Shown in pieces: positions 4,810-32,995 of a DNA stretch of 40,896 nt; the stretch's first letter is position 1; every line of letters begins with the position of its first letter. Below the pieces are notes generated by a model that made no database searches, was not told the DNA's origin, and worked only from the letters and a program-made list of their open reading frames with translations. Position numbers and translations under genes: made by a program. The DNA lies in the IMG/VR virus record IMGVR_UViG_3300015188_000003, positions 1-40,896 of that record. The stretch is one strand, 5' to 3'. This DNA comes from a virus (lineage: Duplodnaviria; Heunggongvirae; Uroviricota; Caudoviricetes).

Positions 4810-4838
4810 TTGCGCGCCCCAATATAATAGGGTACTAT
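4810..4838 (+). promoter_or_regulatory. sigma70-like promoter TTGCGC-N17-TACTAT with embedded operator-like 18-mer (4824..4841)
   Basis: Near-identical to the block at 13046..13074; sits upstream of + gene 4867. Confidence 0.45.
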
Positions 4839-4866
4839 TCACCAGTAACTTACTGAGGGTATAATT

Positions 4867-5193
4867 ATGCGTAAATTAGTATTAGCTCTGGGGTTTATGT
4901 CTTTTGCTACTTTTGGAGCCCCGTGCGAACAGGTATTTAGTGAATCTGTTCTTATGACTTCTGGTGTGCTTGATAAAGCCGACCCTACTATTGTAAAGGC
5001 ATTTAAGGACTCCACAGTCCGTGAATGCGAGGCCGCCGTAGATGTCGGTAAATCGGGCCTACCTCCGCAAGCCGTAACATACACGGTAATACGTTCGGTA
5101 GAGAAAACCGGAGACGCGTTTTACAGCCTTCTGACAGCCACCCGTCTGCAAATGGTAATGACTGGATGGGCAATAGGCGCAGAAAGTAAATAG
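4867..5193 (+). CDS. secreted/periplasmic small protein (108 aa), function unknown
   Basis: N-terminal signal peptide MRKLVLALGFMSFATFGAP; GAGGG SD 7 nt upstream; AT-richer than flanking genes; opposite strand to surrounding tail genes. Confidence 0.75.
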   Translation: MRKLVLALGFMSFATFGAPCEQVFSESVLMTSGVLDKADPTIVKAFKDSTVRECEAAVDVGKSGLPPQAVTYTVIRSVEKTGDAFYSLLTATRLQMVMTGWAIGAESK

Positions 5194-5257
5194 TTGCCTT
5201 TATTTAAAGGAATCCACTGTGGTTAAATAGGACAAATCCTAAGCACGAGGAATAAGC

Positions 5258-6388
5258 ATGGCCCGGAAGAAAATAACCGACGAACAGTTACAGGAAGAAT
5301 TGAACGCCGGTATGAAGAATATCGACATCGCCCGTAAATACGGCATCTCAGACCGCGTTATTCGTATCCGTAAAGCGAAGCTGGCTAAGAAAGGCGTAGG
5401 CCACGGGCGCGACGTCAGCCACCTTGTGCCAGATGGCTACAAGATTAAAGGAACGTCGTCACTTGTGGACGAATACGGCAACACTAAGCTGCAATGGGTT
5501 AAGACCGACACCGATGCCGAACGTCAGGTCGAGTTGATGAAAGCCGTAATCGAGGGCATGAAGTCAGAGATTACGCCCGTTGCGCCTGTTAAAGCCGTTC
5601 GAGCCAAACGCGACGATAAACTGCTCAATCTTTACACTGTATCTGATTTCCATCTCGGTATGCTGGCGTGGGCCGACGAGAGCGGCGACGACTGGGACAT
5701 AAAGATTGCGGAAGACCTGTTCTCCCGCTGGTTCGATGCGGCGTTTAAGAAAGCACCGGACGCGGGGACAGGTGTTATTAACCTGCTGGGTGACCTTGCG
5801 CACTTCGATAGTCTGGATGCCGTTACACCAGCGAGTGGTCATATCCTTGACGCGGACACGCGCTACCAGAAACTTGTCCGCTACATGATTCGTATGGTAC
5901 GTCGTGTCGTTGATATGGCTCTTGTTAAGCATAAAACTGTTCGCTTGCTTATCGTGCAAGGGAACCACGACGAAAGCGGAATGATTTGGTTAGCTGAGAT
6001 GTTCAGTACGCTATACGACAACGAGCCTCGTGTGTTCGTCGATACGTCGCCGGATGTTTACAAGATGGTGCAACACGGCAAAACGACGTTGTTCTTCCAT
6101 CACGGGCATAAGGCACGCTTCGACGCTATCGAACCGGTTATGATTGCCAAGTTCCGCAAAGCGTTCGGTGAGAGTGTTTACAGCTACGCCCACGTAGGCC
6201 ACCTGCACCACCAGAAGATTGTAGAAAGCCGTAACATGATTGTTGAGCAACACCGCACCTTAGCGGCGAAAGACGCCTACGCCTCGCGCGGCGGATGGAT
6301 GTCTGGGCGTAGCGCAAACGTAATTACTTATAGCGCCGAATATGGCGAGGTCGCACGTTTAACTATTTCACCGGAGATGCTGGGATGA
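5258..6388 (+). CDS. HTH-domain protein fused to calcineurin-like metallophosphoesterase
   Basis: N-terminal HTH-like NIDIARKYGISDRVIRIRK; phosphoesterase motifs SDFHLG, GDLAHFD, GNHDE, HHGH, GHLHH; GAGGA SD. Confidence 0.8.
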   Translation: MARKKITDEQLQEELNAGMKNIDIARKYGISDRVIRIRKAKLAKKGVGHGRDVSHLVPDGYKIKGTSSLVDEYGNTKLQWVKTDTDAERQVELMKAVIEGMKSEITPVAPVKAVRAKRDDKLLNLYTVSDFHLGMLAWADESGDDWDIKIAEDLFSRWFDAAFKKAPDAGTGVINLLGDLAHFDSLDAVTPASGHILDADTRYQKLVRYMIRMVRRVVDMALVKHKTVRLLIVQGNHDESGMIWLAEMFSTLYDNEPRVFVDTSPDVYKMVQHGKTTLFFHHGHKARFDAIEPVMIAKFRKAFGESVYSYAHVGHLHHQKIVESRNMIVEQHRTLAAKDAYASRGGWMSGRSANVITYSAEYGEVARLTISPEMLG

Positions 6389-6615
6389 CTTCAAAATACA
6401 ACCGCACAATGACAAATACTCACGGCAGCACTATGACAGTAGACGTTTATGATGTGCTCCGCGCTTTCGACATCCGCGACCCGGCGTTACAGCACGCATT
6501 GAAGAAGCTATTGTGCATGGGTTTACGTGGACACAAGGACACCGGAACCGACTTAGCGGAAGCAATTGAAAGTCTGGAAAAGTTACGGGAGTACAGGAGT
6601 AACATTGATGAGTAA
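6385..6615 (+). CDS. hypothetical protein (76 aa)
   Basis: ATGA start/stop overlap with upstream gene; followed by terminator. Confidence 0.6.
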   Translation: MTSKYNRTMTNTHGSTMTVDVYDVLRAFDIRDPALQHALKKLLCMGLRGHKDTGTDLAEAIESLEKLREYRSNIDE

Positions 6616-6647: not shown

Positions 6648-7811
6648 TGCGTAGGTGATACGCTGAATAACAATAGACGACTGGTACTGGTTGCCAGTAG
6701 CCTGGCCTTCAATGGACTGAGTGATTGACTCAGGTCCGCCAATCTCTGGGGTAACTGCCGTAAGCTCCGCACGTTTCAAACTGAAAGACATAGCCCCGTT
6801 TACCCCCGCCAGAATAGAGTTAATCTCTACCTGCTGCTCGTTGATAAACTTCTGAATCATCGCCATGTCATACAGCTTGCCGGAGATGGAGAAGGTGTTA
6901 GCCGCGCGGCTACGTTCTACAAACGCTACGTTAGTGTTGCCGAGTTCGAACTGCGCGGATGCGCTGTTGTCGTTGGTGATGGTCAGGCTGTCGCAACGCA
7001 ACGGCGTATAGCCGTCAAACACAGAAACGTCAACCGAGGAGAATGGCTCATCACCAAACGTGACAGAGGAGAAGTTGGAACCAGACGGCGGCGTAGTAAG
7101 AATCTCCTGGCTGCGCCCGATGAACGGGAAGCTACCTGTAACCATCGCGTTAACGGCCTGCTCAACGGTGAAACCGGAAACTTCCACACCTTTGGTTAGT
7201 GTGTATGCGTAAGTCCCGCCGCACTGTCCTTTGTACCAGGTGAGAATAGAGAACGTCTTACATGTGTTACCGGTTTCCAGCGTGTCGCCAGTTTTAGCCT
7301 TACTAGTTTTTGTCTCGGTGGTCAGGGTGTGTTGGATGCCTGCACCAGTAACAACGGTAGCCGTTACTGCGGTAACAATAAATGGTTTTGCGTTATCGCC
7401 TGTTAAGTCGGTAAACGCAATCAGGTCGCCTACCTCAACTCCGTCAGTGATAAAACTGCCGGTAGCGCGTGTGAACGTCTTGCCCGCGGGTGCGACGGTG
7501 ATCGATAGTCCTGGCAGAGAAACACCGGATTGCCACGTAGAGCCTAAAGCACCTGCCAACCAGTCATCCTGGCTTTTAGAGCTAAGCTCAATTGCGTATT
7601 CACCGCTAACCTGTTTGTTACCGGTGCGGATGGATGTAGTTTCACGGCTGCCGTCGAGTTCGTTGGAGGTCAGTGTGTCACGGGTAATGGCAGGAACACC
7701 GCCCGTGTTACGTAATGGTGACCAGACCGGGTTAGTCGGTGTTACACCCGGGGTCACTTCCGCCACATAGAATTGCGCGGTATTCGCGCCCTTAAAAGGA
7801 GTTGTAGCCAT
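6645..7811 (-). CDS. major tail protein (candidate)
   Basis: 388-aa ORF, last large gene before the chaperone position, followed by strong terminator; ATG at 7811 with AAGAGG SD (track start 7817 is GTG). Confidence 0.65.
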   Translation of the reverse strand: MATTPFKGANTAQFYVAEVTPGVTPTNPVWSPLRNTGGVPAITRDTLTSNELDGSRETTSIRTGNKQVSGEYAIELSSKSQDDWLAGALGSTWQSGVSLPGLSITVAPAGKTFTRATGSFITDGVEVGDLIAFTDLTGDNAKPFIVTAVTATVVTGAGIQHTLTTETKTSKAKTGDTLETGNTCKTFSILTWYKGQCGGTYAYTLTKGVEVSGFTVEQAVNAMVTGSFPFIGRSQEILTTPPSGSNFSSVTFGDEPFSSVDVSVFDGYTPLRCDSLTITNDNSASAQFELGNTNVAFVERSRAANTFSISGKLYDMAMIQKFINEQQVEINSILAGVNGAMSFSLKRAELTAVTPEIGGPESITQSIEGQATGNQYQSSIVIQRITYA

Positions 7812-12151: not shown

Positions 12152-12230
12152 CAGTATGTCCCCTGGACGTTGGAATCCGGGCCACCCGGATTTACATGTC
12201 AAGAATAAATTATTCCAACATACAAGGCAA

Positions 12231-12494
12231 CTATTCCAGAATATTCCTCACATAATCCTGCAACATGAACACTTTCAGCCTTAGCTGCCGTACGCATTCA
12301 GCGTTCTGAACGTCGATAGCTAAATCCTCGTCAGCGTCGCTACTTGGCGCTGCCAGTTTGCACGGAGGCTGCATCATCGTCGTATCCGGTAATGGAATTA
12401 GCGTTTGCGACGGCGTGGGACTTGAGCAGGACGCGAGCATCGTCGAAAGTGCACACGCTGCGACCCGGCGTTTTAATGTATTTAACAACTTCAC
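12231..12494 (-). CDS. o-spanin (Rz1-like outer-membrane lipoprotein)
   Basis: GTG start with AGAGGTGA SD; lipoprotein signal ending lipobox LASC; Pro-rich; starts inside the i-spanin gene in another frame and extends past its stop. Confidence 0.6.
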   Translation of the reverse strand: MKLLNTLKRRVAACALSTMLASCSSPTPSQTLIPLPDTTMMQPPCKLAAPSSDADEDLAIDVQNAECVRQLRLKVFMLQDYVRNILE

Positions 12495-12770: not shown

Positions 12771-12849
12771 GCTAGTCCTTATCATTTAAACATAGAAACG
12801 GCGTAATCTCAGTAAACCAGTTACTTTTTACACAAGCAATAGAGTATGG

Positions 12850-12979
12850 CCCTTCCGAACGCGTCAGCGTAACTACACTCAGGACTTACGTCCCGCTCCG
12901 TTACCTGCCCGCGCCGCGGTCGCTTGTTCATACTTCACAAGCTCAGGTGGAGCTTATCATATTTTTAGTGAAAAGTCAA
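12850..12979 (-). repeat. conserved ~130-bp intergenic element, copy A (candidate sRNA/leader; paralogue of 23858..23988)
   Basis: Long blocks identical to copy B with indels in the central part; contains candidate - strand promoter and an AAGCTC...GAGCTT hairpin. Confidence 0.6.
12951..12979 (-). promoter_or_regulatory. candidate leftward promoter TTGACT-N17-TAAGCT inside element A
   Basis: Conserved with identical spacing in copy B. Confidence 0.35.
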
Positions 12980-13045
12980 CTATTCGAATAGTTTATTCCA
13001 ACATTTACAATTCGGTGGAATAACTGGAATACGTAAATAAATAGT

Positions 13046-13074
13046 TTGCACACCCCAATATAATAGGGTACTAT
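13046..13074 (+). promoter_or_regulatory. sigma70-like promoter TTGCAC-N17-TACTAT with operator-like 18-mer (13060..13077)
   Basis: Same architecture as 4810..4838; precedes strong SD and + gene 13102. Confidence 0.45.
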
Positions 13075-13101
13075 TCAGTTAACTTAAACAGGAGGTGAAA
13101 A

Positions 13102-13305
13102 ATGTATGCAATTTGCGAAGTAGTTCAAGAGTTCGATGAAGAGTTCGACGGTGACTTGTGCCGGGTTAAAAAGGTTCTGCAGGTTTTCCCTGACGCAATG
13201 TCTGCTTACAAGGCATTAGATATATTTGAACCTGGAAGATACGGGGATTATGACACTGTTCTGAGGGTTGTCCATGAGCAGGATTTAAACACAAGATTCC
13301 GTTGA
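13102..13305 (+). CDS. small acidic protein (67 aa), accessory gene on opposite strand
   Basis: AGGAGGTG SD; own promoter and terminator; embedded between leftward head genes and spanins. Confidence 0.7.
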   Translation: MYAICEVVQEFDEEFDGDLCRVKKVLQVFPDAMSAYKALDIFEPGRYGDYDTVLRVVHEQDLNTRFR

Positions 13306-13796: not shown

Positions 13797-14872
13797 TAAT
13801 CCCCTTTCAGATAATCAGCAACACGTTTATCGAGTTCCGCCATCTGCTTAAGCGTGAGCGGATTCCCGAAACCATCTACAGATATTACGCGAAACTCTTC
13901 CGGCGATATACCGCTGTTACGGAAAATCTTACCGCGAACAGGACCGAGCGCCTGGTCCTGAAACCATGCTGGTTGTTGTTTCAGGAACTCGTAATAGGTG
14001 GTGTCTGCGCTTACCTGAGTACCGCCGTCCGCACCCTTAGCCGCACGTTTTGCGCCTTTATCAAGGAAGTCGAACTCTGAACTGATTACCGGTGCAGTGG
14101 TACTTCGGCAATTAGGATGGGCTGGTGGCATCGGACCTTTACCGATTTCCCACGTCATTCCGTCTCTGGCCCTGCAAATCGTGCTGGTACGGCTGTCCAA
14201 AGTTGACACCCACTCATATTTCTCGATGATGTCGTCGTTCTGGCGGTACGTCTCGTTACGGGCCTCGTTGGATACGTGGGACAGCGCGGTGCGGATTACC
14301 GTAGTCGCGTTACGTTCTGAGATGTCGGCTAGTCCACCAGCGCCAACAACATTCTTAACAATCTGCCGTGTGGTTTGACCTTGCACAAAGCCCATCTTAA
14401 CTCCAGTTACAAGACGTGCTACTTCCGTTTCACCCCAGCCGTCCATCAGCTTAGTGAAATCAACGGGCTTGTCGCTCAATGATAATGGTTGAAACTCGGC
14501 AGCGGCCCATACCTGCTCAGCGGTAGGCGTAACAAATTCCGCGTCTATGTTGGCGGTCAGTGTCTTTACGTTCCACTCAGCCTCGTACGCCGCCAGTTCC
14601 TTAAGGTCGTCTGTTAGCTTTGTTTGCCAGTCACCCGTAATACCGGTTAGTGCTTCTTCCAGGTCGCGTAACAGTTTATTCAGTCGCGCAGTGCTGCGAC
14701 CGTCGTCACCGAATAACAGCACCTGCCGTTTGATTTCATCCCTTATCTCCTGAATGAACGGCGTGAGGTCTTTCACTTCACCGGATGCGGTGCGTTGCAG
14801 CCATATCTGATGGCTGATTAGGGATGTAAGTAAGCTCATAGATAAACCCTGTGGCGCTAAAGTTAATAGCAT
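13796..14872 (-). CDS. head morphogenesis / minor capsid protein (Mu F / SPP1 gp7-like, tentative)
   Basis: 358-aa ORF immediately after portal gene, the canonical position. Confidence 0.65.
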   Translation of the reverse strand: MLLTLAPQGLSMSLLTSLISHQIWLQRTASGEVKDLTPFIQEIRDEIKRQVLLFGDDGRSTARLNKLLRDLEEALTGITGDWQTKLTDDLKELAAYEAEWNVKTLTANIDAEFVTPTAEQVWAAAEFQPLSLSDKPVDFTKLMDGWGETEVARLVTGVKMGFVQGQTTRQIVKNVVGAGGLADISERNATTVIRTALSHVSNEARNETYRQNDDIIEKYEWVSTLDSRTSTICRARDGMTWEIGKGPMPPAHPNCRSTTAPVISSEFDFLDKGAKRAAKGADGGTQVSADTTYYEFLKQQPAWFQDQALGPVRGKIFRNSGISPEEFRVISVDGFGNPLTLKQMAELDKRVADYLKGD

Positions 14873-14877
14873 ACTAT

Positions 14878-14900
14878 AAGAAAGCCCCTTTCGGGGCTAT
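14878..14900 (-). terminator. hairpin AGCCCC-TTTC-GGGGCT with U-rich tail (partial terminator)
   Basis: Between portal and head morphogenesis genes. Confidence 0.4.
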
Positions 14901-14908
14901 AGGTGAAC

Positions 14909-16402
14909 TTACTGCTGAGTGGTGTCCTGTTGCTGCGCCGACTGCGGAATCTCTCCCGCTACCTGAGCAACAGAACCCAACGGCAGAGGTGCGTCTTCAA
15001 TAGCGTTCTGAATGTCCTCATCTGTCCAGTCAGTCACACCTGCCTTGCGCAACGCAGCATAGTAAGCGGTGGCGGGTAGCAGGCCAGCGTTAATATCCGC
15101 CATCCACTGAGCGCGGTCCTGAGCTGTCATAGGTTGCAGGAAGAATTCCATATTCAGCTTGAACTCAATCTCAGTATCTTCACTAAGCCCAAGCATACCC
15201 GCAACCCAGCGCAACGCATCGGTATACGCCATGCTTACATTACGTGCTATTGTTGCCATGACTGACGTGTCGGCGCCGCGTTGCAGCCGTGCCGATTCAG
15301 CGGTGATTTGCTGCGTCGGGGTGATAAGCTGCGCGCCAATCTGGATGGCCTGATTCTCTTTATCCAGCATATTCTGTTTGGCGAGGTTAGTTTCCGCCGC
15401 CTGAACCAGAAACGCATTGCCGCCGGAGCCGATGTTGTGGCCTGAACGCGACCCCATGCGTATGCCGTGTGGGTTGGCTTCTTTCCACTGCTCCATGCTC
15501 ATGTTCTCGCCGGGGGCAATGAACAGTGTCGGTTGACCTACTATAAAGCTGGCCTCTTCCACATCGGCCGAATTTCTGAAGTGTCCTATATTTAGCTCAG
15601 CTAACGGCAGTAAAGGCGCATCGTCTATAGTGGCGTCGTTGTTGCTTGCGCCGATGAACGTGAACGGAATCACCCCTACAGGAATATTACCGAGTTTCGG
15701 GAAGATTTCGATATAGCCTCCTTCCATCAGTGCGCCTTTCTGGTTAAAGCGGTACAGACGCTGGCGATACTGGCCTTCGAAGATGTCAAGGACGCGGTAT
15801 TGTTCACCATAGTTAGGGCTGAACTCATCCGTGCCGTCGGTGTACTCGTATTCTTCACGCAATACAACCATAACCACACGATTGACCGACCCGACGCGCT
15901 GAAGACGCCAGTTGATGATGTTCTCTGCGGTGTAGAAAGCGATTGTCGGGTTAAGTAATCCCTCGTTTTGCTCCGCCATAGTAGCGACTTCTACCGCAGG
16001 CGCGTCCACCAGCAAACCGCCACGACCAACAGCATCAATCTCATACAGGGTATCCTGCGCGTGCTGCCACAGACCAACGCCCGACCCATCGCAGTTAGTG
16101 GTCAGGTACTCCATCTGAGACGGAATAATCATCTCAGGGTCTTTGCGCATTACGCTACCTACCATGCCGGAAAGCGTTCTTTTGGTGAAGTTATAGCAAA
16201 TAGCCCCCGCTTCATATTCAGCCTGACGCTGGCGACCGTAAACTGGATCCGGCTCGTTCTTACCGACGTCACGTAAATATGATGTCAGGTCACCAGAAAG
16301 TGCGTGGCGTACCTTCTGCCATTTAGGAAAATATTCTTCGTACTGGCGGTGGCGGGTTTTAACGTTCTGCCCTTGCCCTGCGTTAATATTTGCGGAAACC
16401 AT
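14909..16402 (-). CDS. portal protein
   Basis: 497-aa ORF directly downstream of large terminase; AAGAGGA SD. Confidence 0.8.
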   Translation of the reverse strand: MVSANINAGQGQNVKTRHRQYEEYFPKWQKVRHALSGDLTSYLRDVGKNEPDPVYGRQRQAEYEAGAICYNFTKRTLSGMVGSVMRKDPEMIIPSQMEYLTTNCDGSGVGLWQHAQDTLYEIDAVGRGGLLVDAPAVEVATMAEQNEGLLNPTIAFYTAENIINWRLQRVGSVNRVVMVVLREEYEYTDGTDEFSPNYGEQYRVLDIFEGQYRQRLYRFNQKGALMEGGYIEIFPKLGNIPVGVIPFTFIGASNNDATIDDAPLLPLAELNIGHFRNSADVEEASFIVGQPTLFIAPGENMSMEQWKEANPHGIRMGSRSGHNIGSGGNAFLVQAAETNLAKQNMLDKENQAIQIGAQLITPTQQITAESARLQRGADTSVMATIARNVSMAYTDALRWVAGMLGLSEDTEIEFKLNMEFFLQPMTAQDRAQWMADINAGLLPATAYYAALRKAGVTDWTDEDIQNAIEDAPLPLGSVAQVAGEIPQSAQQQDTTQQ

Positions 16403-16413
16403 TTGTTGTCCTC

Positions 16414-17685
16414 TTAAAGTGCGAAAGTCACCGGGATGTTGATTACTGGTTTGCGAATCGGCATTTCATACGCGATGGGATATGTGGTCCCGTCATTCTG
16501 GTGGTCCACACCACCCGATTTATCCGGTTCGCCGTTCTTGTCGTAAGCCTGTTGCTCCAGGCATCGCGCGGTAACCGGGCAAGCCTGCTCATTAATCATG
16601 ACCATACCAGATTCAAGCGCCTTATTCATCGCCGCTACGCGGTCTTTAACCGGTGGGTTTGTCGATTTAGCGCGCACTTCGAAGCCGGCCTGCTGTAACT
16701 GGGCAATATCAGATGTGCTGGCGTTGTTACTTTTACGGTTTTTACCGCTTGCGTCGGGGTACATAACGATATAGTGGCCCTTACTTTTCCAGCGCTCTGT
16801 TACGGCTCTCACCACATCGGGCGTATCGGACATATCCACCAACTCGGCGACTGCATGCCAGACTTTGCCACGTTGCACGTAAACTGTACTAGCCATGTGG
16901 CCTACGTTAAAGTCCTGCCCGATATACAGAGTCTCGCCTGGTTTTATTGTTTCGCGGCTGCTGTTTTTCCTGCGGTCATAGGCGTAATAGACAGTCCCCG
17001 CCGTCAGGTTGACGAACTCGCCGTTGATGTAGGCGTCAATCAACTGACCTGGGTATGTGTCGCGTAACGACTGCACATAATCTTCTGGCAGGAACGGGTT
17101 AGACAGGGTGGACGCCTGAATCATCTCGTAGCCTGGATTCTTTTTGACTACCCAGCGGTCATGTACGAAACGGAATCCTTCCGGGGTAGTGAACACGGAA
17201 ACGGTATTAGCAGGTTTCGGTGTAATAGGTTTATATGTCCGCGGCAACTGGCGGTTACGGGCGATGACTTTGTTCCACGCGTGCTCGGCGTGCTCCATGT
17301 TAAGGGTGTCCAACTCGTCGATTTTCGCACGAAACGATTCGTAGCCAACGATTCGTGCTGGATTATCAAGTGTACGCAGAACAAAATCCCCAAATTGTCC
17401 GGAAGACGTATAGATTATGTTGTCAGACTTGTTGTATTTGTACCGGATACCCCAGTCGGTGAGCTTTTCTTCCATACGCGGTGCAAGGATGAGGCGCACC
17501 AGGTCATAAGTCGGCTCATACATGGCGATGATAGAATCGCTACCACCTTCCATGCTGTCGAGTAGTGCAGAGTTGCACATAACTTCGGATTTACCCGTAC
17601 CGAAGCCAGCTACGAATGCCGGAAACTTGCAATGCATACCGAGAAACGCGCCTTGCGGCTCCGTTGCCGTGATATTAACGTTCAC
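16414..17685 (-). CDS. terminase large subunit
   Basis: Walker A-like GFGTGKS near N-terminus; GTG start with AAGGTGG SD; overlaps small terminase. Confidence 0.85.
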   Translation of the reverse strand: MNVNITATEPQGAFLGMHCKFPAFVAGFGTGKSEVMCNSALLDSMEGGSDSIIAMYEPTYDLVRLILAPRMEEKLTDWGIRYKYNKSDNIIYTSSGQFGDFVLRTLDNPARIVGYESFRAKIDELDTLNMEHAEHAWNKVIARNRQLPRTYKPITPKPANTVSVFTTPEGFRFVHDRWVVKKNPGYEMIQASTLSNPFLPEDYVQSLRDTYPGQLIDAYINGEFVNLTAGTVYYAYDRRKNSSRETIKPGETLYIGQDFNVGHMASTVYVQRGKVWHAVAELVDMSDTPDVVRAVTERWKSKGHYIVMYPDASGKNRKSNNASTSDIAQLQQAGFEVRAKSTNPPVKDRVAAMNKALESGMVMINEQACPVTARCLEQQAYDKNGEPDKSGGVDHQNDGTTYPIAYEMPIRKPVINIPVTFAL

Positions 17686-19949: not shown

Positions 19950-20194
19950 TTCTTCTCTCCTGCATAAGCTGCTTTCAGTGTCTGCATAGCAGCGAACCAG
20001 AACGCATCCGCAGGGATATTGCGGCTCAGGTTACTAACGGCGATACGCGCCATCAGTTGTGCGTCTTTGAATGCTTCGGTATCTGTGATTTTCATTGGAA
20101 ATTTACGCATAGCAACCGGGTCATTACCCATAGTCCATGCGATACATTTGGCTTCAAGTTCCTCGGTTATTGCGATTGTCTGTACGTTACTCAT
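19946..20194 (-). CDS. hypothetical early protein (82 aa)
   Basis: Track ORF, first gene after promoter 20228..20256. Confidence 0.6.
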   Translation of the reverse strand: MSNVQTIAITEELEAKCIAWTMGNDPVAMRKFPMKITDTEAFKDAQLMARIAVSNLSRNIPADAFWFAAMQTLKAAYAGEKK

Positions 20195-20227
20195 CTTCTC
20201 TACTCCGTTCTCGTTGTCGATGGAGTA

Positions 20228-20256
20228 AATATAATAGGGTCGTAGGTAATAGTCAA
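20228..20256 (-). promoter_or_regulatory. sigma70-like promoter TTGACT-N17-TATATT (leftward)
   Basis: Immediately downstream of terminator 20277..20310; shares ATAATAGGG with the operator family. Confidence 0.4.
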
Positions 20257-20276
20257 CTAGTCATTGCAGAAAATAG

Positions 20277-22314: not shown

Positions 22315-22583
22315 CACTCCACCCCCTCCACATGTGTAACCGACCCGCAGTTCGCGCACTCGACGTAATCAGGGTACTGGTCTTTGTATTTCTGTAGCTC
22401 GGCGTTTACTTCTGCCAGTCTCGACACAAGCCCTTCTATTTCCTTGTCGGCGTCGGCTAGACGTTCCTGGTAATAGTCGTCCAGTTCCTTATAGCTGTCG
22501 TACTCTACATAATCGCCGTATGCGTACTCAGCCATCTCAGGCTCTGGCAGGCCCCACGCTTTTACCTCATATCTCTGTACCAT
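22314..22583 (-). CDS. hypothetical acidic early protein (89 aa)
   Basis: First gene after promoter 22613..22641. Confidence 0.6.
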   Translation of the reverse strand: MVQRYEVKAWGLPEPEMAEYAYGDYVEYDSYKELDDYYQERLADADKEIEGLVSRLAEVNAELQKYKDQYPDYVECANCGSVTHVEGVE

Positions 22584-22612
22584 ATTATCTCTCCTCTCGT
22601 TTGTGTAAATGA

Positions 22613-22641
22613 ATAGTAGCCTATTCTATCTTAGTGTGCAA
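22613..22641 (-). promoter_or_regulatory. sigma70-like promoter TTGCAC-N17-TACTAT with operator 18-mer (22610..22627), leftward
   Basis: Reverse complement matches the 13046..13074 block. Confidence 0.45.
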
Positions 22642-23397: not shown

Positions 23398-23616
23398 TTA
23401 TTTAAAGTAGATAGCGAATTTCTTGTAACCCGCAGGCTCATTACGAAGCCCCTTACCGATAGCGAAACGTTGTACGTTGTTAAAATCGTTTCCATCCATA
23501 CCGTCGGTGCCGAACGTAAAGAAGTTGCGTTTGTTCCCGATAATTACGCGCTCTGAAATATCGATGCCGTAAACTTGTTTGATTGCGGAAACTACGCTTG
23601 CGGTCGCTTTGTTCAT
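23398..23616 (-). CDS. hypothetical early protein (72 aa)
   Basis: First gene downstream of promoter 23651..23679. Confidence 0.6.
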   Translation of the reverse strand: MNKATASVVSAIKQVYGIDISERVIIGNKRNFFTFGTDGMDGNDFNNVQRFAIGKGLRNEPAGYKKFAIYFK

Positions 23617-23650
23617 TTCTAAATTCCTTATGTCTCGTTTCGATAAGTGA

Positions 23651-23679
23651 ATAGTAACCTATTATGTTGGGGTGTGCAA
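23651..23679 (-). promoter_or_regulatory. sigma70-like promoter TTGCAC-N17-TACTAT with operator 18-mer (23648..23665), leftward
   Basis: Reverse complement near-identical to 13046..13077. Confidence 0.45.
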
Positions 23680-23777: not shown

Positions 23778-23857
23778 CTACCTTGCTCACGGCAACTATA
23801 GAAACTTTTAATTATCAGTGACTTGGATATTTAGGCGGGATTAACAATAGACTTTGA

Positions 23858-23988
23858 CCCTTCCGAAAGCGTCAGCGGAACTACACTCAAGTGCCTAATG
23901 GCACGCGTTGCGTTCCCTGCCGCTCCGCGGTCGCTTGCGATATCTCACAAGCTCAGTGAAGCTTAGCATATTTTCAAGTAAAAGTCAA
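23858..23988 (-). repeat. conserved ~130-bp intergenic element, copy B (candidate sRNA/leader)
   Basis: Aligned with 12850..12979; shared blocks include CCCTTCCGAA.GCGTCAGCG.AACTACACTCA, CCGCGGTCGCTTG and TCACAAGCTCAG...AAAAGTCAA. Confidence 0.6.
23960..23988 (-). promoter_or_regulatory. candidate leftward promoter TTGACT-N17-TAAGCT inside element B
   Basis: Same boxes and spacing as in copy A. Confidence 0.35.
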
Positions 23989-24035
23989 TACCAGTAGCAT
24001 CTTTTGTATTTTAGTAACTTTGTGTGGTGTTTTGG

Positions 24036-24095: not shown

Positions 24096-24278
24096 ATGCA
24101 GCATTACATGACACAGAATGAAGTAGCTGAACGTATAGGGGTGACACGTCAGACAATTAATAACTGGTTGCGCAGTGGTAAATTCCCGGATTGTTGTATT
24201 AAGGTTATGGGTCGCCGTTTACCAGGAACATTTGACCGTAATAAAGTTGAAGCATGGATTAAGGAGAACGTGAAATGA
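24096..24278 (+). CDS. small HTH DNA-binding protein (AlpA/excisionase-type fold, regulator)
   Basis: MTQNEVAERIGVTRQTINNWL helix-turn-helix; ATG with AGGAG SD (track start 24024 is GTG). Confidence 0.7.
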   Translation: MQHYMTQNEVAERIGVTRQTINNWLRSGKFPDCCIKVMGRRLPGTFDRNKVEAWIKENVK

Positions 24279-24555: not shown

Positions 24556-24684
24556 ATGACAAAGTTAATAGTTCCACAGCTACGCCGCCAGAAACACGGC
24601 GCTGACTTCTTCGCACCGGTAAAGATGAACCGCGCAATGCGCCGTATGCAGGAAGCCTTAGAACGTGCGGAGAAAAAGAAATGA
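24556..24684 (+). CDS. small basic protein (42 aa), not on ORF track
   Basis: AAGGA SD; stop overlaps primase ATG (ATGA). Confidence 0.4.
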   Translation: MTKLIVPQLRRQKHGADFFAPVKMNRAMRRMQEALERAEKKK

Positions 24685-26933
24685 ATATTGTTTTTGCAAC
24701 GCTGCGTAACACATTCGATAAAAACCCTGTAGCGCGTGAGATGCCGCTCGAGCAGTTTGTGGAGTATGTCTGCGATACATCGAAGCGTTTATCCGTGGAC
24801 CCGTCATGGACTAAGGAAGAGTACGACGCGGCCAAGATTAAACAGAAAGCTATTGCGCCTGTTGGCGGTCGCCGTAAGAACGCTATTCTGGAAGACAGTG
24901 TGGTTAAGTTCGATTTTGACCATCTCAACCGTACTCAGTACCGCGACCTTACCCGCAAATTCAAGAACGCACCGTTCTTCAATATTCTGCATACAACGGC
25001 ATCGCATCAGCATGTGTGTAAAAACGGTGATTACGCCTTCCGCGTTCTCGTACCGGCTCGCACGCCGTTTAACTCTAACGACGCGTGGATGGTCCAACGG
25101 GCTATTTGTGCAGAGTTAGAAATAGATGAAGCCTTGCGTGACCACTGCACGGAAGACGGCAACCGCCTTATCTATCTGCCACATAGAGAGTCAAAGATAA
25201 CGGTTACAGAAGGGCGCGTTATCCGTGCCGAGCGGTACATCAAGAAAGCCGAAGAGATGGGGTTGAGTAAACGTGAAGTTAAGACACTTGCCGCCGATGA
25301 GTATGGGCTTAACGCTGATATAGCGCATTTCTGCGAAGCCGAGCTTGGCCTTGACGCTTTATCTTCCGGGCGCGGGTACGAAGTCCCATGTCCTAACGAA
25401 CATCTGCATACAGGCAAAGGCTCCACAAGCATCATGCTTGATGGTAAAGAAGTGCGCTTTGTGTGCCAGCATACAAACAACGGCGCTTGCACCGAGCTTA
25501 ACCGCCGACAGCATTTGGCCCTGCGTATGTGCGGCCTGCCAGACGAGCTTAACGTAGACAAGCAACCTATCAGTATTAACAGCATTCGTGCGGCTCTGCC
25601 TGATTTACCGGATGAAGAGATTGAAGAACTGCACCGCACAGAGAACGAGGAGCCTGTAACTTGCACGCTGGAAGACCTTGAAGAAGAGGACGAGTTACCA
25701 GAACCGGTAAAGGCTGATTTCGTCGTTGAGGGGTACATGCCGTCGGATTGTATCTGGGATATTGTCGGGGAATCCGGCACGTACAAATCATTCTATACGC
25801 TGGGGATGATGTACCTGAGCGCCGCCGGGTACCGGTTTGCGGGGGCTGACACCCAACGTTGCCACCATTTCTATATTGACGGCGAGGGTGGTGCAGCTAC
25901 ACGAACACGTATTGATGCACTCGCGGCTAAATATGGCGAGGAAGGTAAAGATTATGTACATGTCATCGATATGGGCGAAATACTCGCTACGCATGGTGAT
26001 AAAAAAATTCCAGCTCTAATCCGCAGGATGCGCGAAACCGCAGGGGATGAACCTATTGGCATGGTTGCCTTCGACACCCTTAACCAGACGCTGGCCCTGA
26101 CGATTGATAAGTTCGACGAGAACAGTTCATCAACGGCAATCGGTATGGGTAAAGTTATCGCCATCCTGAAAGAAGTGCGCGATGCAACTAAAGCCGCTGT
26201 CGGTGTCGTTCACCATACTCCGAAGGGCGGAAAGAAAGCCCGCGGCAGTGGAGCATTGTATGCGGGTGTCGACGTGGAACTGACAATCGAACGCGCTACC
26301 GACCGTCAGATAAACGTATACCACTCTAAATTTAAGCACGGTCCGCAACAGAAGACGGTTGGCATGGTACTGGAGTCTGTACAGTTCCGTGAAGCACCGC
26401 CGCCGAAAGAGTACCGCGCGGTTGAGTTCCTCGGTAGCACAGAGGAATACGGCACAATAGTAAACCTCGACCTGCCTGAGCCGCACAAGGCGCTTGTATT
26501 GATGCCGTGGGGCTTCGAGCCATTCAAGACCGACGAGGAGAAAGAGAGGGAAGAAGGGTTAACTAACGAAGGTAAACAAAATGTACGTAAAACCATAGAG
26601 AACGCCGTCAACAGTTCCGAGGCCACGATACTCGCGGCGTTTGAACTGGCGGAGGGGACCTACAACGGCAACGAGGGCATCACGGTATCCGCAGCGAATA
26701 AGCTCGCGCAGTCTGACCCCAACGCAAAGGCGTTTAACTCCAAAGAAGCCATAGAACGCGGGAAGATTAAGAAAATGGTTGAGGCTGGGTATCTTGTTCC
26801 GGGTACTGACGAAAACAATCAGATAATCACAGGCCGTTACAGGCTGAATACCCGGATAACGGATAACAAGATTCCGAAGACACTATACGAACCGAATGAA
26901 ATGCTGGTGGTGACCGAGGATGATTTGGAATAA
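24681..26933 (+). CDS. replicative primase-helicase (primase-like N-terminal region, RecA/DnaB-like ATPase C-terminal region)
   Basis: 750 aa; Walker A-like VGESGTYKS; KFDFDH acidic motif; first large gene of replication block. Confidence 0.65.
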   Translation: MNIVFATLRNTFDKNPVAREMPLEQFVEYVCDTSKRLSVDPSWTKEEYDAAKIKQKAIAPVGGRRKNAILEDSVVKFDFDHLNRTQYRDLTRKFKNAPFFNILHTTASHQHVCKNGDYAFRVLVPARTPFNSNDAWMVQRAICAELEIDEALRDHCTEDGNRLIYLPHRESKITVTEGRVIRAERYIKKAEEMGLSKREVKTLAADEYGLNADIAHFCEAELGLDALSSGRGYEVPCPNEHLHTGKGSTSIMLDGKEVRFVCQHTNNGACTELNRRQHLALRMCGLPDELNVDKQPISINSIRAALPDLPDEEIEELHRTENEEPVTCTLEDLEEEDELPEPVKADFVVEGYMPSDCIWDIVGESGTYKSFYTLGMMYLSAAGYRFAGADTQRCHHFYIDGEGGAATRTRIDALAAKYGEEGKDYVHVIDMGEILATHGDKKIPALIRRMRETAGDEPIGMVAFDTLNQTLALTIDKFDENSSSTAIGMGKVIAILKEVRDATKAAVGVVHHTPKGGKKARGSGALYAGVDVELTIERATDRQINVYHSKFKHGPQQKTVGMVLESVQFREAPPPKEYRAVEFLGSTEEYGTIVNLDLPEPHKALVLMPWGFEPFKTDEEKEREEGLTNEGKQNVRKTIENAVNSSEATILAAFELAEGTYNGNEGITVSAANKLAQSDPNAKAFNSKEAIERGKIKKMVEAGYLVPGTDENNQIITGRYRLNTRITDNKIPKTLYEPNEMLVVTEDDLE

Positions 26934-26960
26934 GTAAAAAGAAAGGGGCATTAAGCCCCT
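26931..26960 (-). terminator. terminator for the regulator gene (AGGGGC-loop-GCCCCT + U-tract on - strand)
   Basis: Hairpin overlaps stop of 26951..27166. Confidence 0.6.
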
Positions 26961-27166
26961 TCACCGAACGCCAGCCACTTGGCGTCTACTTGTAGCACTT
27001 CCGCCAGCTTGAACAGCGTCGCCGGCCGGACGTCCTGAGTTACCCCGAGCGCAAGCTGGTTAATCGCGCCCTGGGAAACGCCAGCCAGGACCGCCAGACG
27101 GCGCTGGGAGATGCCGAGTTCTTTACGGCGTTGTTCTACGCGGATACCTAGTTCAGATGGTTGCAT
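26951..27166 (-). CDS. XRE/Cro-CI-type HTH transcriptional regulator (71 aa)
   Basis: LGISQRRLAVLAGVSQGAINQL helix-turn-helix; divergent from operator-bearing promoters. Confidence 0.8.
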   Translation of the reverse strand: MQPSELGIRVEQRRKELGISQRRLAVLAGVSQGAINQLALGVTQDVRPATLFKLAEVLQVDAKWLAFGEGA

Positions 27167-27186: not shown

Positions 27187-27215
27187 TTGATATGTGAATA
27201 GTACCATATTAATTA
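27187..27215. promoter_or_regulatory. operator 18-mer TGAATAGTACCATATTAA (27195..27212) in divergent region with weak promoter elements
   Basis: Motif family member 25 nt upstream of the regulator start codon. Confidence 0.4.
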
Positions 27216-27230
27216 TTTTAGAAAAGCCCA

Positions 27231-27259
27231 TTGACACGTGAATAGTTCGCTATTATAGT
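27231..27259 (+). promoter_or_regulatory. strong sigma70-like promoter TTGACA-N17-TATAGT with operator 18-mer in the spacer (27239..27256)
   Basis: Consensus -35, 17-bp spacer; operator occupies the spacer. Confidence 0.55.
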
Positions 27260-27290
27260 TAACCCATACCAAACGAGAGGAGAGAAACAA

Positions 27291-27791
27291 ATGTTAGAAC
27301 AATTCTTAAAATTACTGGAACGTTTCGTAGTTGCACATGAACTGATTGCGGCGAACAGCGTTCGCCGTACGGAACTGCCGAAGGCCATTACTGCGCCGTA
27401 TGGTAAAGACGCTGACAGCGGTGATGCAGAAACCGCAACAATCGCGACGACAAAAGAACTTCCAGTAGAAGGTGAAGACGTCGTCGACACTAAACCGGCG
27501 GAAGAAGAGAAGCCGAAACGCAAGCCGCGTAAAGCTAAGGCGGAGGAGCCAGCACCAGAACCGGAAGAGGATAAAGAAGAAGTCGATTACCAGTCTCTGC
27601 GCGACCAGATTCAGGCTATAGACGATGCTATTAACGAAGGCCCGAGCGATGCCGCGTGCGACGACTCTGATGAACTGCTGGAAGAGTTCACCGGCAAGAA
27701 GATGAAGATTGCCGCGATTAAAGACGAAGACCTGGCTGAATACCTGGAGCGCCTGACCGCGATTAAGAACAAGTATTTCGAAGAAGAATAA
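27291..27791 (+). CDS. highly acidic early protein (166 aa), function unknown
   Basis: AGGAG SD; Glu/Asp-rich with PEK-rich linker; first gene after operator-controlled promoter. Confidence 0.75.
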   Translation: MLEQFLKLLERFVVAHELIAANSVRRTELPKAITAPYGKDADSGDAETATIATTKELPVEGEDVVDTKPAEEEKPKRKPRKAKAEEPAPEPEEDKEEVDYQSLRDQIQAIDDAINEGPSDAACDDSDELLEEFTGKKMKIAAIKDEDLAEYLERLTAIKNKYFEEE

Positions 27792-29345: not shown

Positions 29346-29545
29346 TTCAAGTAAATGAAATGCCGACTGATAAAGATTTTTTGATGGTATGGCGCTGGGA
29401 TGGGTATCTACACTCGGAATCGTTCACGTTCTTGAACGGTACCATGATGCGATACGACCCTGTAGAGGATGAGTTCGAACCGGCCAATATGCTTAATTTC
29501 GAGAACATAATCCCTATTGCAAAATTTTATTTGACACATGAATAG
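29342..29545 (+). CDS. hypothetical protein (67 aa)
   Basis: ATGA overlap with nuclease stop; last codons overlap promoter 29531..29559. Confidence 0.6.
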   Translation: MIQVNEMPTDKDFLMVWRWDGYLHSESFTFLNGTMMRYDPVEDEFEPANMLNFENIIPIAKFYLTHE

Positions 29546-29559
29546 TTAGCTATTATAGT
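29531..29559 (+). promoter_or_regulatory. sigma70-like promoter TTGACA-N17-TATAGT with operator 18-mer (29539..29556), overlapping the 3' end of the upstream CDS
   Basis: Same architecture as 27231..27259. Confidence 0.5.
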
Positions 29560-32626: not shown

Positions 32627-32721
32627 AAATTTACTGGTTATATGAAGAAGACTGTCGAATCTGCCCTCGCTGCGGTATCGCGCATACGAAACGGGAGGGG
32701 TGTATAGATGAGTACGCCTGA
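32623..32721 (+). CDS. small Cys-rich (CxxCxxC) peptide (32 aa), not on ORF track
   Basis: ATGA overlap upstream; DCRICPRCG zinc-ribbon-like motif. Confidence 0.3.
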   Translation: MKIYWLYEEDCRICPRCGIAHTKREGCIDEYA

Positions 32722-32995
32722 GGGGCGCGTGCAGAAATACGCAAAAGAGCGATTCGAGGCCCTGGGAGGCCTCGTACGCAAATTGTCGTACGAGGGGCGT
32801 TCCGGCGCCCCCGACCTGCTGGTAATTCTCCCTGGTGGCATCATCTGGTTCGTCGAGGTTAAGAAAGACGAAAACACGAAGCCGGACCCGCACCAGTTAC
32901 GAGAGCACGAGCGGATGCGTAAACGTGGTGCAAATGTTTTTGTCGTTGGTTCGTTTAAACAGGTTGACGACCTAATAGCGGGCTATTATAGTTAA
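32708..32995 (+). CDS. VRR-NUC domain nuclease
   Basis: GAPDLLVILPGGIIWFVEVKK...PHQ resembles VRR-NUC core. Confidence 0.7.
   Translation: MSTPEGRVQKYAKERFEALGGLVRKLSYEGRSGAPDLLVILPGGIIWFVEVKKDENTKPDPHQLREHERMRKRGANVFVVGSFKQVDDLIAGYYS

What the first reader, a model, noticed from the sequence alone, without database searches (positions are those of the whole stretch)
27187..27259. Phage-wide operator-like 18-mer (TGAATAGT-N3-CTATTAT) embedded in at least seven promoters, next to a small XRE regulator
The quasi-palindromic motif occurs at 4824..4841, 13060..13077, 22610..22627, 23648..23665, 27195..27212, 27239..27256 and 29539..29556. Each time it sits inside a -35/-10 pair with a 17-bp spacer (TTGCAC...TACTAT or TTGACA...TATAGT), and a related perfect palindrome CTATTCGAATAG lies at 12980..12991. 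Conservation extends well beyond the polymerase contacts, implying a dedicated DNA-binding factor. The 71-aa XRE-type HTH protein (26951..27166) is the obvious candidate, but the 24096 HTH protein or the HTH-phosphoesterase cannot be excluded.
Basis: seen in the sequence. Interest (0 to 1): 0.7.

Follow-up and report, generated by a model that had tools for sequence, protein, structure and literature searches.

The report
Cro-like repressor operators in phage promoters
A 14-bp palindrome (AATAG-N4-CTATT) built into at least eight early/middle promoters of this lytic coliphage is most likely the binding site of the phage's own small 434-Cro-like repressor. This is an ordinary kind of switch, already listed in genome papers as "phage promoters" but never tested.

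Summary
The 18-mer occurs 11 times at ≤3 mismatches against 0.72 expected, and its core AATAG-N4-CTATT occurs 7 times exactly against 0.04 expected. It is the top repeat family in an unbiased scan. The window is a Kagunavirus (Guernseyvirinae) genome.

Every strong copy sits inside a sigma-70-type promoter of a non-structural operon, but in three different registers relative to the -35 hexamer. The half-sites are invariant and the central 4 bp drift. Sister lineages carry their own concerted variants at the orthologous promoters. This argues for a trans-acting dimeric protein rather than RNA polymerase contacts.

The 71-aa XRE protein is the best candidate. It is a 434-Cro homologue in sequence and predicted fold, the site has 434-operator geometry, and the gene is flanked by two sites, one over its own -10. 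It is the only recognisable regulator present in all motif-bearing lineages.

The HTH_17 protein is effectively excluded: phages ST20 and GZMU_E2010 lack it yet keep an identical XRE and the operator set. The phosphoesterase is unlikely.

No binding data exist, and recognition-helix residues do not track the motif variants cleanly.

Two genome papers already list these sites as PHIRE "promoters". Verdict: new member of a known kind, modest interest.

The parts
26951..27166 (-). 71-aa XRE/HTH_3 protein, a 434-Cro-like candidate repressor
   Evidence: Pfam HTH_3 at 48 bits against a cutoff of 23. The best PDB sequence match is 434 Cro, E 5e-7, with the same length of 71 aa. The AF2 model has five helices and pLDDT 79.6. 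Foldseek top matches are 434 repressor and Cro, SinR and P22 c2. Residues 18-46 are invariant across homologues of 77-100% identity.
26942..26962 (.). Bidirectional terminator-like hairpin between the converging helicase-primase and XRE genes
27197..27210 (.). O-xre: operator core AATAGTACCATATT (1 core mismatch). It overlaps the XRE gene's own - strand promoter, which has TG at 27206-27205, a -10 TACTAT at 27203-27198 and no -35.
   Evidence: The flanking 62 nt are near-identical in most Kaguna loci. Every lineage examined has a motif-like site over the -10 of its XRE promoter.
27231..27259 (+). Rightward promoter TTGACA-17-TATAGT with the operator core at 27241..27254 filling the spacer and touching the -10. 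It drives the operon of the 166-aa protein and the PD-(D/E)XK exonuclease.
   Evidence: 11 of 12 hexamer matches. The orthologous promoter is present in all lineages with a changing embedded site.
29531..29559 (+). Promoter TTGACA-17-TATAGT with operator core 29541..29554. It drives the SSB/annealing protein and DNA polymerase genes.
   Evidence: Orthologues are seen in Jersey and Cornell phages.
32964..32992 (+). Promoter TTGACG-17-TATAGT with an exact operator core at 32974..32987. It drives the 63-aa protein, methyltransferase and helicase operon.
23651..23679 (-). Class-2 promoter TTGCAC-17-TACTAT with operator core 23650..23663, so the -10 lies inside the core. It drives the leftward early small genes starting at 23616.
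22613..22641 (-). Class-2 promoter TTGCAC-17-TACTAT with operator core 22612..22625. It drives the leftward genes starting at 22583.
13046..13075 (+). Class-2 promoter TTGCAC-17-TACTAT with operator core 13062..13075. It drives a 67-aa gene lying antisense within the structural gene block.
4810..4839 (+). Class-2 promoter TTGCGC-17-TACTAT with operator core 4826..4839. It drives a cassette (108-aa protein, metallophosphoesterase, 76-aa protein) lying antisense within the tail gene block.
20228..20261 (-). Class-3 site: a one-mismatch core at 20248..20261 (ACTAG-TTGA-CTATT on the - strand) overlapping the -35 of TTGACT-17-TATATT. It lies upstream of the small genes starting at 20194.
   Evidence: It is conserved in the Kaguna and Jersey lineages, each with one imperfect half-site.
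12971..12984 (.). Doubtful member: core AAAAG-TCAA-CTATT (1 mismatch) just after a terminator-like hairpin. The overlapping CTATTCGAATAG is not an operator-type palindrome.
   Evidence: It is conserved in ST20 and E2010.

Best explanation
The motif is the operator of the phage-encoded 71-aa XRE protein, a 434-Cro-type helix-turn-helix repressor. A dimer would read two AATAG half-sites separated by four free base pairs.

Each operator overlaps the spacer and -10 (or, at one site, the -35) of a host sigma-70 promoter, so an occupied operator would block RNA polymerase. The regulon covers the XRE gene's own promoter, giving negative autoregulation. It also covers the promoters of essentially all non-structural operons: replication and recombination genes, leftward early small genes, and two cassettes antisense to late genes. 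As XRE accumulates it would therefore turn down the early/middle programme. Sites with imperfect cores (27197, 20248) would respond at higher concentration.

Shown here: the motif, its statistics, its promoter context, its conservation pattern, and the fold and homology of XRE.
Inferred: that XRE binds it, that binding represses, and the timing.
For: (1) Non-randomness is strong: 7 exact cores against 0.04 expected, and 13 at ≤1 mismatch against 1.0 expected. The motif is the top repeat family in an unbiased scan.

(2) The motif is not an RNA polymerase contact. In the window the core starts 4 nt after the -35 at 3 promoters and 10 nt after it at 5 promoters, and it overlaps the -35 at one. 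In Jerseyvirus MA12 the offsets are +4, +7 and +11. Some Kaguna phages have a 1-nt indel between the -35 and the motif.

(3) It has the signature of a dimeric HTH operator. The half-sites carry about maximal information and the central 4 bp are nearly free, over 69 and 35 unique instances.

(4) Variants are lineage-specific and concerted at orthologous promoters. Kaguna and Jersey phages use AATAG..CTATT. Cornellvirus uses ATTAG..GTATW (4 exact against about 0.1-0.3 expected). Lineage L051 uses AATAC..GTATW (3 in 12.7 kb). Lineage L053 uses AATAG..GTATW (3). Cornell and Jersey phages share the host Salmonella, which argues against a host factor.

(5) XRE is a 434-Cro homologue. The 14-bp 5-4-5 site matches the geometry of 434 operators. 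The lambdoid homologue (45% identical) sits next to ACAA-N6-TTGT operators. The Gln that begins the recognition helix and the A at half-site position 1 are both invariant in all five aligned XRE homologues.

(6) XRE is syntenic with a double site, one copy over its own -10, in every lineage examined.

(7) XRE is the only recognisable regulator present in all motif-bearing lineages. Its HTH is invariant across homologues of 77-100% identity.

(8) HTH_17 is removed as a rival. ST20, GZMU_E2010, L024 and L018 lack HTH_17 but keep a 99-100% identical XRE (100% in ST20, GZMU_E2010 and L018; 99% in L024) together with the operator set.
Against: There is no direct binding or expression evidence anywhere. 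I found no functional study.

Residue-level co-variation is not clean. Kaguna (QGAINQ) and Jersey (QSLITH) recognition helices differ at four positions yet share the same core. Jersey and Cornell (QSAISH) helices are more alike yet have different cores (discussion).

Two XRE-bearing lineages (L067, L074) show no genome-wide motif.

The promoter hexamers and transcription starts are predictions. Class-2 sites also contain a second -10-like hexamer (TATAAT or CATAAT) 10 bp upstream, so the exact overlap is uncertain.

The published Kagunavirus RNA-seq could not be mapped onto XRE with confidence.
Confidence: 0.6

Rival explanations
1. The motif is an operator, but for a different phage protein. 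Candidates are the N-terminal domain of the 376-aa metallophosphoesterase (5258..6388), the syntenic 166-aa protein (27291..27791), or an unrecognised small protein.
For: The phosphoesterase has a weak LuxR/GerE-type HTH match at residues 14-45 (E 9e-4). It is present in all three genera and is itself in a motif-controlled operon. The 166-aa protein is syntenic with the double site in every lineage.
Against: The GerE match is below Pfam's cutoff (19 bits against 23.5). The putative recognition helix of the phosphoesterase groups Jersey with Cornell against Kaguna, the opposite of the motif pattern. Its N-domain occurs in 1,593 phage records across many siphovirus groups, which suggests a housekeeping enzyme. 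The 166-aa protein has no Pfam hit. Its model is low-confidence (pLDDT 55) and mostly disordered, with no HTH.
Confidence: 0.14
2. No separate factor exists. The sequence would be a promoter-intrinsic module, a family of duplicated strong sigma-70 promoters whose spacer is kept by common descent or by selection for promoter strength. Published genome papers treat it this way, as 'phage promoters'.
For: The motif always coincides with -35/-10 pairs. Its AT-rich arms themselves supply -10-like hexamers (TACTAT, TATTAT, TATAAT). PHIRE lists the sites as promoters.
Against: The register relative to the -35 changes (+4, +7, +10/11, or overlapping the -35) while the palindrome is preserved. The -35-proximal arm lies where sigma-70 makes no base-specific contacts, yet it is as conserved as the -10. 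Two-fold symmetry and lineage-specific concerted changes across paralogous promoters need a trans factor. No phage RNA polymerase gene is annotated in the relatives examined.
Confidence: 0.1
3. The 60-aa HTH_17 (excisionase/MerR-like) protein at 24096..24278 binds the motif.
For: Its distribution (443 phage records, all Kaguna or Jersey) matches the exact AATAG..CTATT core. It is 82% identical between the two genera.
Against: Natural knockouts exist. ST20 and GZMU_E2010 (complete genomes) and L024 and L018 have the gene replaced by unrelated 47-aa and 149-aa genes. There is no HTH_17 hit genome-wide (best E 0.013 and 0.065). Yet they retain a 99-100% identical XRE (100% in ST20, GZMU_E2010 and L018; 99% in L024) and 6-7 exact operators at the same promoters. 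No motif copy lies next to its gene. From background knowledge, small HTH_17 proteins such as Xis and BldC typically bind direct repeats, not 5-4-5 palindromes.
Confidence: 0.03
4. A host (E. coli or Salmonella) transcription factor binds the motif.
For: AT-rich palindromes in promoters can be host-factor sites. The left end TGAAT resembles half of an ARG box; this is from memory and was not tested.
Against: Cornellvirus and Jerseyvirus both infect Salmonella but use different variants. Kaguna phages (E. coli) and Jersey phages (Salmonella) share one. The spacing does not fit the ARG, TrpR or NrdR boxes that I considered.
Confidence: 0.04

Closest known systems
Phage 434 Cro (and the 434/P22 repressor DNA-binding domains) with the OR/OL operators
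   Same: XRE is a 71-aa single-domain HTH_3 protein and 434 Cro is its best PDB sequence match (E 5e-7). The predicted five-helix fold matches 434 Cro and repressor at TM 0.73-0.76. A Gln starts the recognition helix. The operator is a 14-bp palindrome with 4-5 bp arms and a non-conserved centre. The sites overlap core promoter elements of divergent promoters, including the regulator's own.
   Different: There is no CI partner, integrase or lysogeny module, and the phages are reported as strictly lytic. The gene sits in the 'cI position', divergent from the replication operon. The half-site is AATAG rather than ACAA. There are two local sites 44 bp apart instead of a tandem triplet, plus at least six further operators dispersed over the genome.
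Dispersed-operator repressor regulons of temperate phages (P1 C1 with more than 14 operators; mycobacteriophage L5 gp71 'stoperators'). This comparison rests on background knowledge.
   Same: One small phage repressor has many sites scattered over the genome and controls many transcription units.
   Different: Those sites are asymmetric and bound by monomers. L5 stoperators lie within transcription units and are orientation-dependent. Both systems serve lysogenic maintenance. Here the sites are palindromic, lie inside promoters and belong to a lytic phage.
PHIRE 'phage-specific promoters' reported for Kagunavirus fBC-Eco01 (PMC9825357) and VB_EcoS-Golestan (PMC7203180)
   Same: These are the same sequences, with consensus tgAATAGTa-ccTATTat-T and seven per genome, including the pair next to the XRE/'Cro' gene.
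   Different: They were interpreted as promoters, in fBC-Eco01 as promoters for a phage-encoded RNA polymerase. No such gene is annotated in the relatives examined, and the motif lies between canonical sigma-70 hexamers. Neither paper proposed an operator role or a link to XRE.
Restriction-modification controller (C) proteins, for example C.AhdI and C.BclI
   Same: They are close structural matches to the XRE model. They are small XRE dimers that bind palindromic boxes overlapping their own promoter to act as a timing switch.
   Different: C proteins control one local promoter pair in an R-M operon and both activate and repress. No R-M context exists here.

Membership tests
XRE / HTH_3 (434 Cro-type) DNA-binding proteins | HTH_3 domain above Pfam's gathering score | tested here: met
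   PF01381, 48.1 bits against a cutoff of 23, residues 11-65.
XRE / HTH_3 (434 Cro-type) DNA-binding proteins | Five-helix globular fold superimposable on 434 Cro and repressor | tested here: met
   The AF2 model has pLDDT 79.6 and helices at 5-17, 21-28, 32-39, 48-57 and 62-66. Foldseek matches 1pra, 2cro and 3cro at TM 0.73-0.76 and 36-41% identity.
XRE / HTH_3 (434 Cro-type) DNA-binding proteins | Conserved Gln at the start of the recognition helix (Gln28 in 434) | tested here: met
   Q32 is invariant in all five aligned XRE homologues and aligns with 434 Cro Q28.
XRE / HTH_3 (434 Cro-type) DNA-binding proteins | Dimer binds a two-fold symmetric operator of about 14 bp with a non-contacted centre | tested here: inconclusive
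   The candidate site has exactly this geometry and conservation pattern. Binding and dimerisation could not be tested.
Lambdoid CI/Cro bistable immunity switch | A CI-type repressor with a C-terminal oligomerisation/S24 cleavage domain opposite Cro | tested here: not met
   Only one 71-aa single-domain XRE is present. The divergent partner gene is a 166-aa protein without an HTH. None is annotated in relatives.
Lambdoid CI/Cro bistable immunity switch | Integrase/lysogeny module and tandem OR1-OR2-OR3 operators | tested here: not met
   No integrase is annotated in relatives. There are two sites 44 bp apart, not a triplet.
Phage-RNA-polymerase-specific promoters (as published for fBC-Eco01) | A phage-encoded RNA polymerase, and promoters lacking host sigma-70 hexamers | tested here: not met
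   No RNA polymerase gene is annotated in Bas71, MA12 or ST20. The motif is flanked by near-consensus TTGACA-17-TATAGT.
MerR-type spacer-binding activators | Over-long (19-20 bp) promoter spacer containing the palindrome | tested here: not met
   The spacers are 17 bp, occasionally 18.

The most novel reading that the evidence does not exclude
Obligately lytic Guernseyvirinae may run their whole non-structural transcription programme through an 'orphan Cro'. This would be a single 434-Cro-like protein, sitting in the cI position without any CI partner. Its operators are fused to the -10 elements of every early/middle promoter; the half-sites themselves provide TACTAT or TATTAT. Promoter and operator would therefore co-evolve as one unit and drift in concert between genera. 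The protein would work as a genome-wide timer. It would also silence cassettes transcribed antisense to the late operons.
Probability: 0.35. Interest if true: 0.5.

Novelty: new member of a known kind. Interest (0 to 1): 0.35.

Why it matters
Kaguna- and Jerseyviruses are among the most commonly isolated therapeutic and biocontrol phages for E. coli and Salmonella, with about 470 related records. They are also promoted as small chassis for synthetic biology.

Their promoters would be operator-controlled by a single small repressor rather than being 'phage RNA polymerase promoters'. That would correct the literature annotation and explain why a 'repressor' gene is universally kept in strictly lytic phages; the gene is often flagged as a safety concern. 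It would also give a compact, portable promoter/operator/repressor set with natural specificity variants (AATAG, ATTAG, AATAC).

Mechanistically it is a conventional Cro-type system, so the conceptual surprise is small.

Tried and rejected
- A brute-force PHIRE-like scan timed out. I rewrote it by diagonals and it then worked.
- The literature search 'AATAGT + PHIRE' matched inside unrelated words and gave only noise.
- A de novo repeat search in the other XRE lineages found only coding-sequence chance families. Their variants were found only by reading the orthologous promoters.
- The K1B4 Kagunavirus RNA-seq paper calls an HTH gene (K1B4_008) early and a 'specific DNA binding' gene (K1B4_004) middle. 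The held supplement contains only host annotation, so the mapping is unresolved. Gene order suggests 004 is XRE and 008 is HTH_17, but this is an inference.
- An Rfam scan of the window gave no hits.
- The 166-aa protein gave a low-confidence model, so I did not run a fold search.
- The phosphoesterase has no PDB sequence match.
- I considered ArgR, TrpR and NrdR boxes and the phage methyltransferase target and rejected them on geometry. The methyltransferase is also absent from Jersey phages, which keep the motif.
- I considered MerR-like activation and rejected it because the spacers are 17 bp.

Full report
**What the window is.** Megablast places the window in the genus Kagunavirus (subfamily Guernseyvirinae). 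It is 92-93% identical to phages SHAK7858 and Bas71, with hundreds of Jerseyvirus relatives at 80-90%. The gene order follows annotated relatives. A replication/recombination block lies on the + strand (24.0-35.4 kb). Early small genes, lysis genes and structural genes lie on the - strand. Two short + strand cassettes are embedded antisense in the structural block (4867-6615 and 13102-13305).

**Checking the observation.**
- The 18-mer gives 11 hits at ≤3 mismatches against 0.72 expected.
- The palindromic core AATAG-N4-CTATT gives 7 exact hits against 0.04 expected, and 13 at ≤1 mismatch against 1.0 expected.
- A scan of all 18-mers against all others, with no prior pattern, returns this family as the largest in the genome.
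- The 'related' CTATTCGAATAG at 12980 has its arms in the opposite order and is not the same kind of site.

**Anatomy.** The sites fall into classes.
- Class 1 (27241, 29541, 32974): TTGAC[A/G], then 4 nt, then the core, with the last T of the core starting a TATAGT -10. The spacer is 17 bp and the hexamers are near consensus.
- Class 2 (4826, 13062, 22612, 23650): TTGC[A/G]C, then 10 nt, then the core in the other orientation, with the -10 TACTAT inside the core.
- The 27197 site is class-2-like on the - strand and points at the XRE gene. It has no -35. The single 'mismatch' in its core creates TGgTACTAT, an extended -10.
- At 20248 a one-mismatch core overlaps the -35 of TTGACT-17-TATATT.
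- All of these promoters serve non-structural operons, and none lies directly upstream of a capsid or tail operon.
- Caveat: the hexamers and transcription starts are predicted. Class-2 sites also hold a second -10-like hexamer (TATAAT, CATAAT or TAGAAT) 10 bp upstream. Either way the core overlaps a -10.

**Is it more than a promoter?** Three observations say yes.
- The palindrome keeps its sequence while its register to the -35 changes. The offsets are +4, +10 and over the -35 in the window, and +4, +7 and +11 in Jerseyvirus MA12. Some Kaguna phages have a 1-nt indel between the -35 and the motif.
- Over 69 (class 1) and 35 (class 2) unique instances from 37 Kaguna sequences (the window, Bas71 and 35 loci), both arms carry near-maximal information and the central four positions carry almost none. 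The -35-proximal arm lies where sigma-70 makes no base-specific contact.
- Sister lineages carry their own variants, used concertedly at several promoters of one genome and at orthologous positions. Kaguna and Jersey use AATAG..CTATT. Cornellvirus uses ATTAG..GTATW (4 exact against about 0.1-0.3 expected). Lineage L051 uses AATAC..GTATW (3 in 12.7 kb). Lineage L053 uses AATAG..GTATW.

Concerted change of paralogous sites needs a trans-acting reader.

**Which protein?**

*XRE (26951..27166).*
- It has a clear HTH_3 domain.
- Its best solved relative is 434 Cro, also 71 aa.
- An AF2 model (pLDDT 79.6) is a five-helix domain matching 434 repressor and Cro, SinR, P22 c2 and C proteins.
- A 45%-identical homologue in a lambdoid Klebsiella phage is annotated cro and lies next to ACAA-N6-TTGT operators. 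That is the same 14-bp 5-4-5 geometry as the motif here.
- The Gln that opens the recognition helix and the A at arm position 1 are both invariant in all five aligned homologues.
- XRE is present and syntenic in every motif-bearing lineage.
- It is always next to the rightward replication-operon promoter, and a motif-like site always lies over the -10 of its own promoter.
- Its HTH (residues 18-46) is invariant among homologues of 77-100% identity, while the termini vary. This is expected for a regulator tied to many operators.

*HTH_17 (24096..24278).*
- It is confined to the Kaguna and Jersey lineages (443 records) and is 82% identical between them. It therefore tracks the exact core and was a serious rival.
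- Four Kaguna genomes have it replaced by unrelated 47-aa and 149-aa genes: the complete isolates ST20 and GZMU_E2010, and the IMG/VR loci L024 and L018.
- In ST20 and GZMU_E2010 no HTH_17 is detectable anywhere (best E 0.013 and 0.065), XRE is 100% identical, and 6-7 exact cores sit at the same promoters.
- This is a natural knockout that removes HTH_17 as the cognate factor.

*Phosphoesterase (5258..6388).*
- It has only a sub-threshold GerE-type HTH.
- Its putative recognition helix groups Jersey with Cornell against Kaguna, opposite to the motif pattern.
- Its N-domain occurs in 1,593 phage records of many families.

*The syntenic 166-aa protein.* It has no domain hit and a largely disordered, low-confidence model.

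*Cornellvirus early region.* It has no other Pfam-recognisable HTH protein.

**Caveats.**
- Nothing here shows binding.
- The XRE recognition helix does not track the variants neatly. Kaguna QGAINQ and Jersey QSLITH share a core, while Jersey and Cornell (QSAISH) are more alike but have different cores.
- 434 Cro and 434 repressor show that divergent helices can read one operator (background knowledge). Even so, the co-variation argument is suggestive only.
- Two XRE lineages (L067, L074) have no genome-wide motif.
- In the deeper lineages the arms are degenerate, A[A/T]TA[G/C/T].

**Mechanism proposed.** XRE dimers would occupy 14-bp operators that overlap the -10 and spacer (or the -35) of at least eight sigma-70 promoters. 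This would repress the promoters by occlusion. The set includes XRE's own promoter (autoregulation) and the near-consensus promoters of the replication/recombination operons, the leftward early genes and the two antisense cassettes. The expected outcome is a Cro-like turn-down of early/middle transcription as XRE accumulates. One plausible benefit is removal of head-on transcription into late operons. The timing, and whether binding represses or modulates, are inferred.

**Relation to what is known.**
- The motif is not new as an observation. The fBC-Eco01 paper lists PP1-PP7 with consensus tgAATAGTa-ccTATTat-T and assigns them to a phage RNA polymerase. The Golestan paper lists seven PHIRE promoters that are the same sites, including two before its 'CRO' gene.
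- No phage RNA polymerase gene is annotated in the relatives examined, so that attribution is wrong.
- I found no paper proposing the operator reading or testing XRE. The searchable library covers open-access papers only.
- The system works like, and XRE belongs to, the 434-Cro/XRE family. It is not a lambdoid immunity switch, because it has no CI, no integrase and no operator triplet.
- In its many dispersed operators it resembles the P1 C1 and L5 gp71 regulons, but here the sites are palindromic, embedded in promoters and carried by a lytic phage.

**Verdict.** This is a new member of a known kind and of modest interest.

Noticed in passing
window 12838-12985 (+) and 23848-23990 (+): Two homologous non-coding elements of about 140 nt, 82% identical. 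Each ends in an invariant hairpin (AAGCTC..GAGCTT) followed by a T-run. The variable middle forms a hairpin with compensatory changes between copies and orthologues (GGAC/GTCC, GTGCC/GGCAC, GGGC/GCCC, GTGC/GCAC). There is no Rfam match. About half of the Kaguna loci have it; it was not detected in Jersey or Cornell phages. It is probably a structured small RNA.
   Followed up: partly
window 12196-12245 and 12995-13035; L004 31061 and 31704: GGAATA-type repeats abut a TTGACA that has no obvious -10 (GGAATAGTTGCC..GGAATAATTTATTCTTGACA), upstream of the scaffold/capsid genes. They are almost identical in Cornellvirus. This may be a late promoter with an activator site, distinct from the operator motif.
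   Followed up: no
L085 (ST20) 6954-7539; L086 874-1459; L024 12559-13144: In a subset of Kagunaviruses the HTH_17 plus 70-aa module upstream of the helicase-primase gene is replaced. In its place are a 47-aa CxxC..CxxC (Zn-ribbon-like) protein and a 149-aa protein with no Pfam hit.
   Followed up: partly
L001 (Bas71) 32649-32864: The XRE gene is intact in Bas71 (94% identical) but is not annotated. The record instead has a 31-aa ORF on the other strand.
   Followed up: yes
window 27260-27290, 22584-22612, 23617-23650, 20195-20228: Several motif promoters share a leader of the type (C/A)AAACGAGAGGAGAGA that includes the Shine-Dalgarno sequence. The duplicated unit is therefore promoter, operator and 5' UTR together.
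   Followed up: no
window 14865-14878: A one-mismatch core (TATAG-TATG-CTATT on the - strand) lies immediately after a terminator hairpin between the portal and head-morphogenesis genes. It is conserved in GZMU_E2010 and listed as a PHIRE promoter in Golestan. It may be an internal weak site.
   Followed up: no
L085 10505-10762; L086 4161-4340: ST20 and GZMU_E2010 carry an extra small gene, annotated Ral-like in one, inserted directly between the operator-controlled rightward promoter and the 166-aa gene. Accessory genes appear to be slotted under this promoter.
   Followed up: no
L004 (Cornellvirus) 14353-17001 versus window 24681-27166: In Cornell-like lineages XRE lies upstream of, and co-oriented with, the helicase-primase gene. 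In Kaguna and Jersey phages the two genes converge on a shared terminator. The helicase-primase module has been inverted between lineages while the divergent XRE/166-aa control region was kept.
   Followed up: no
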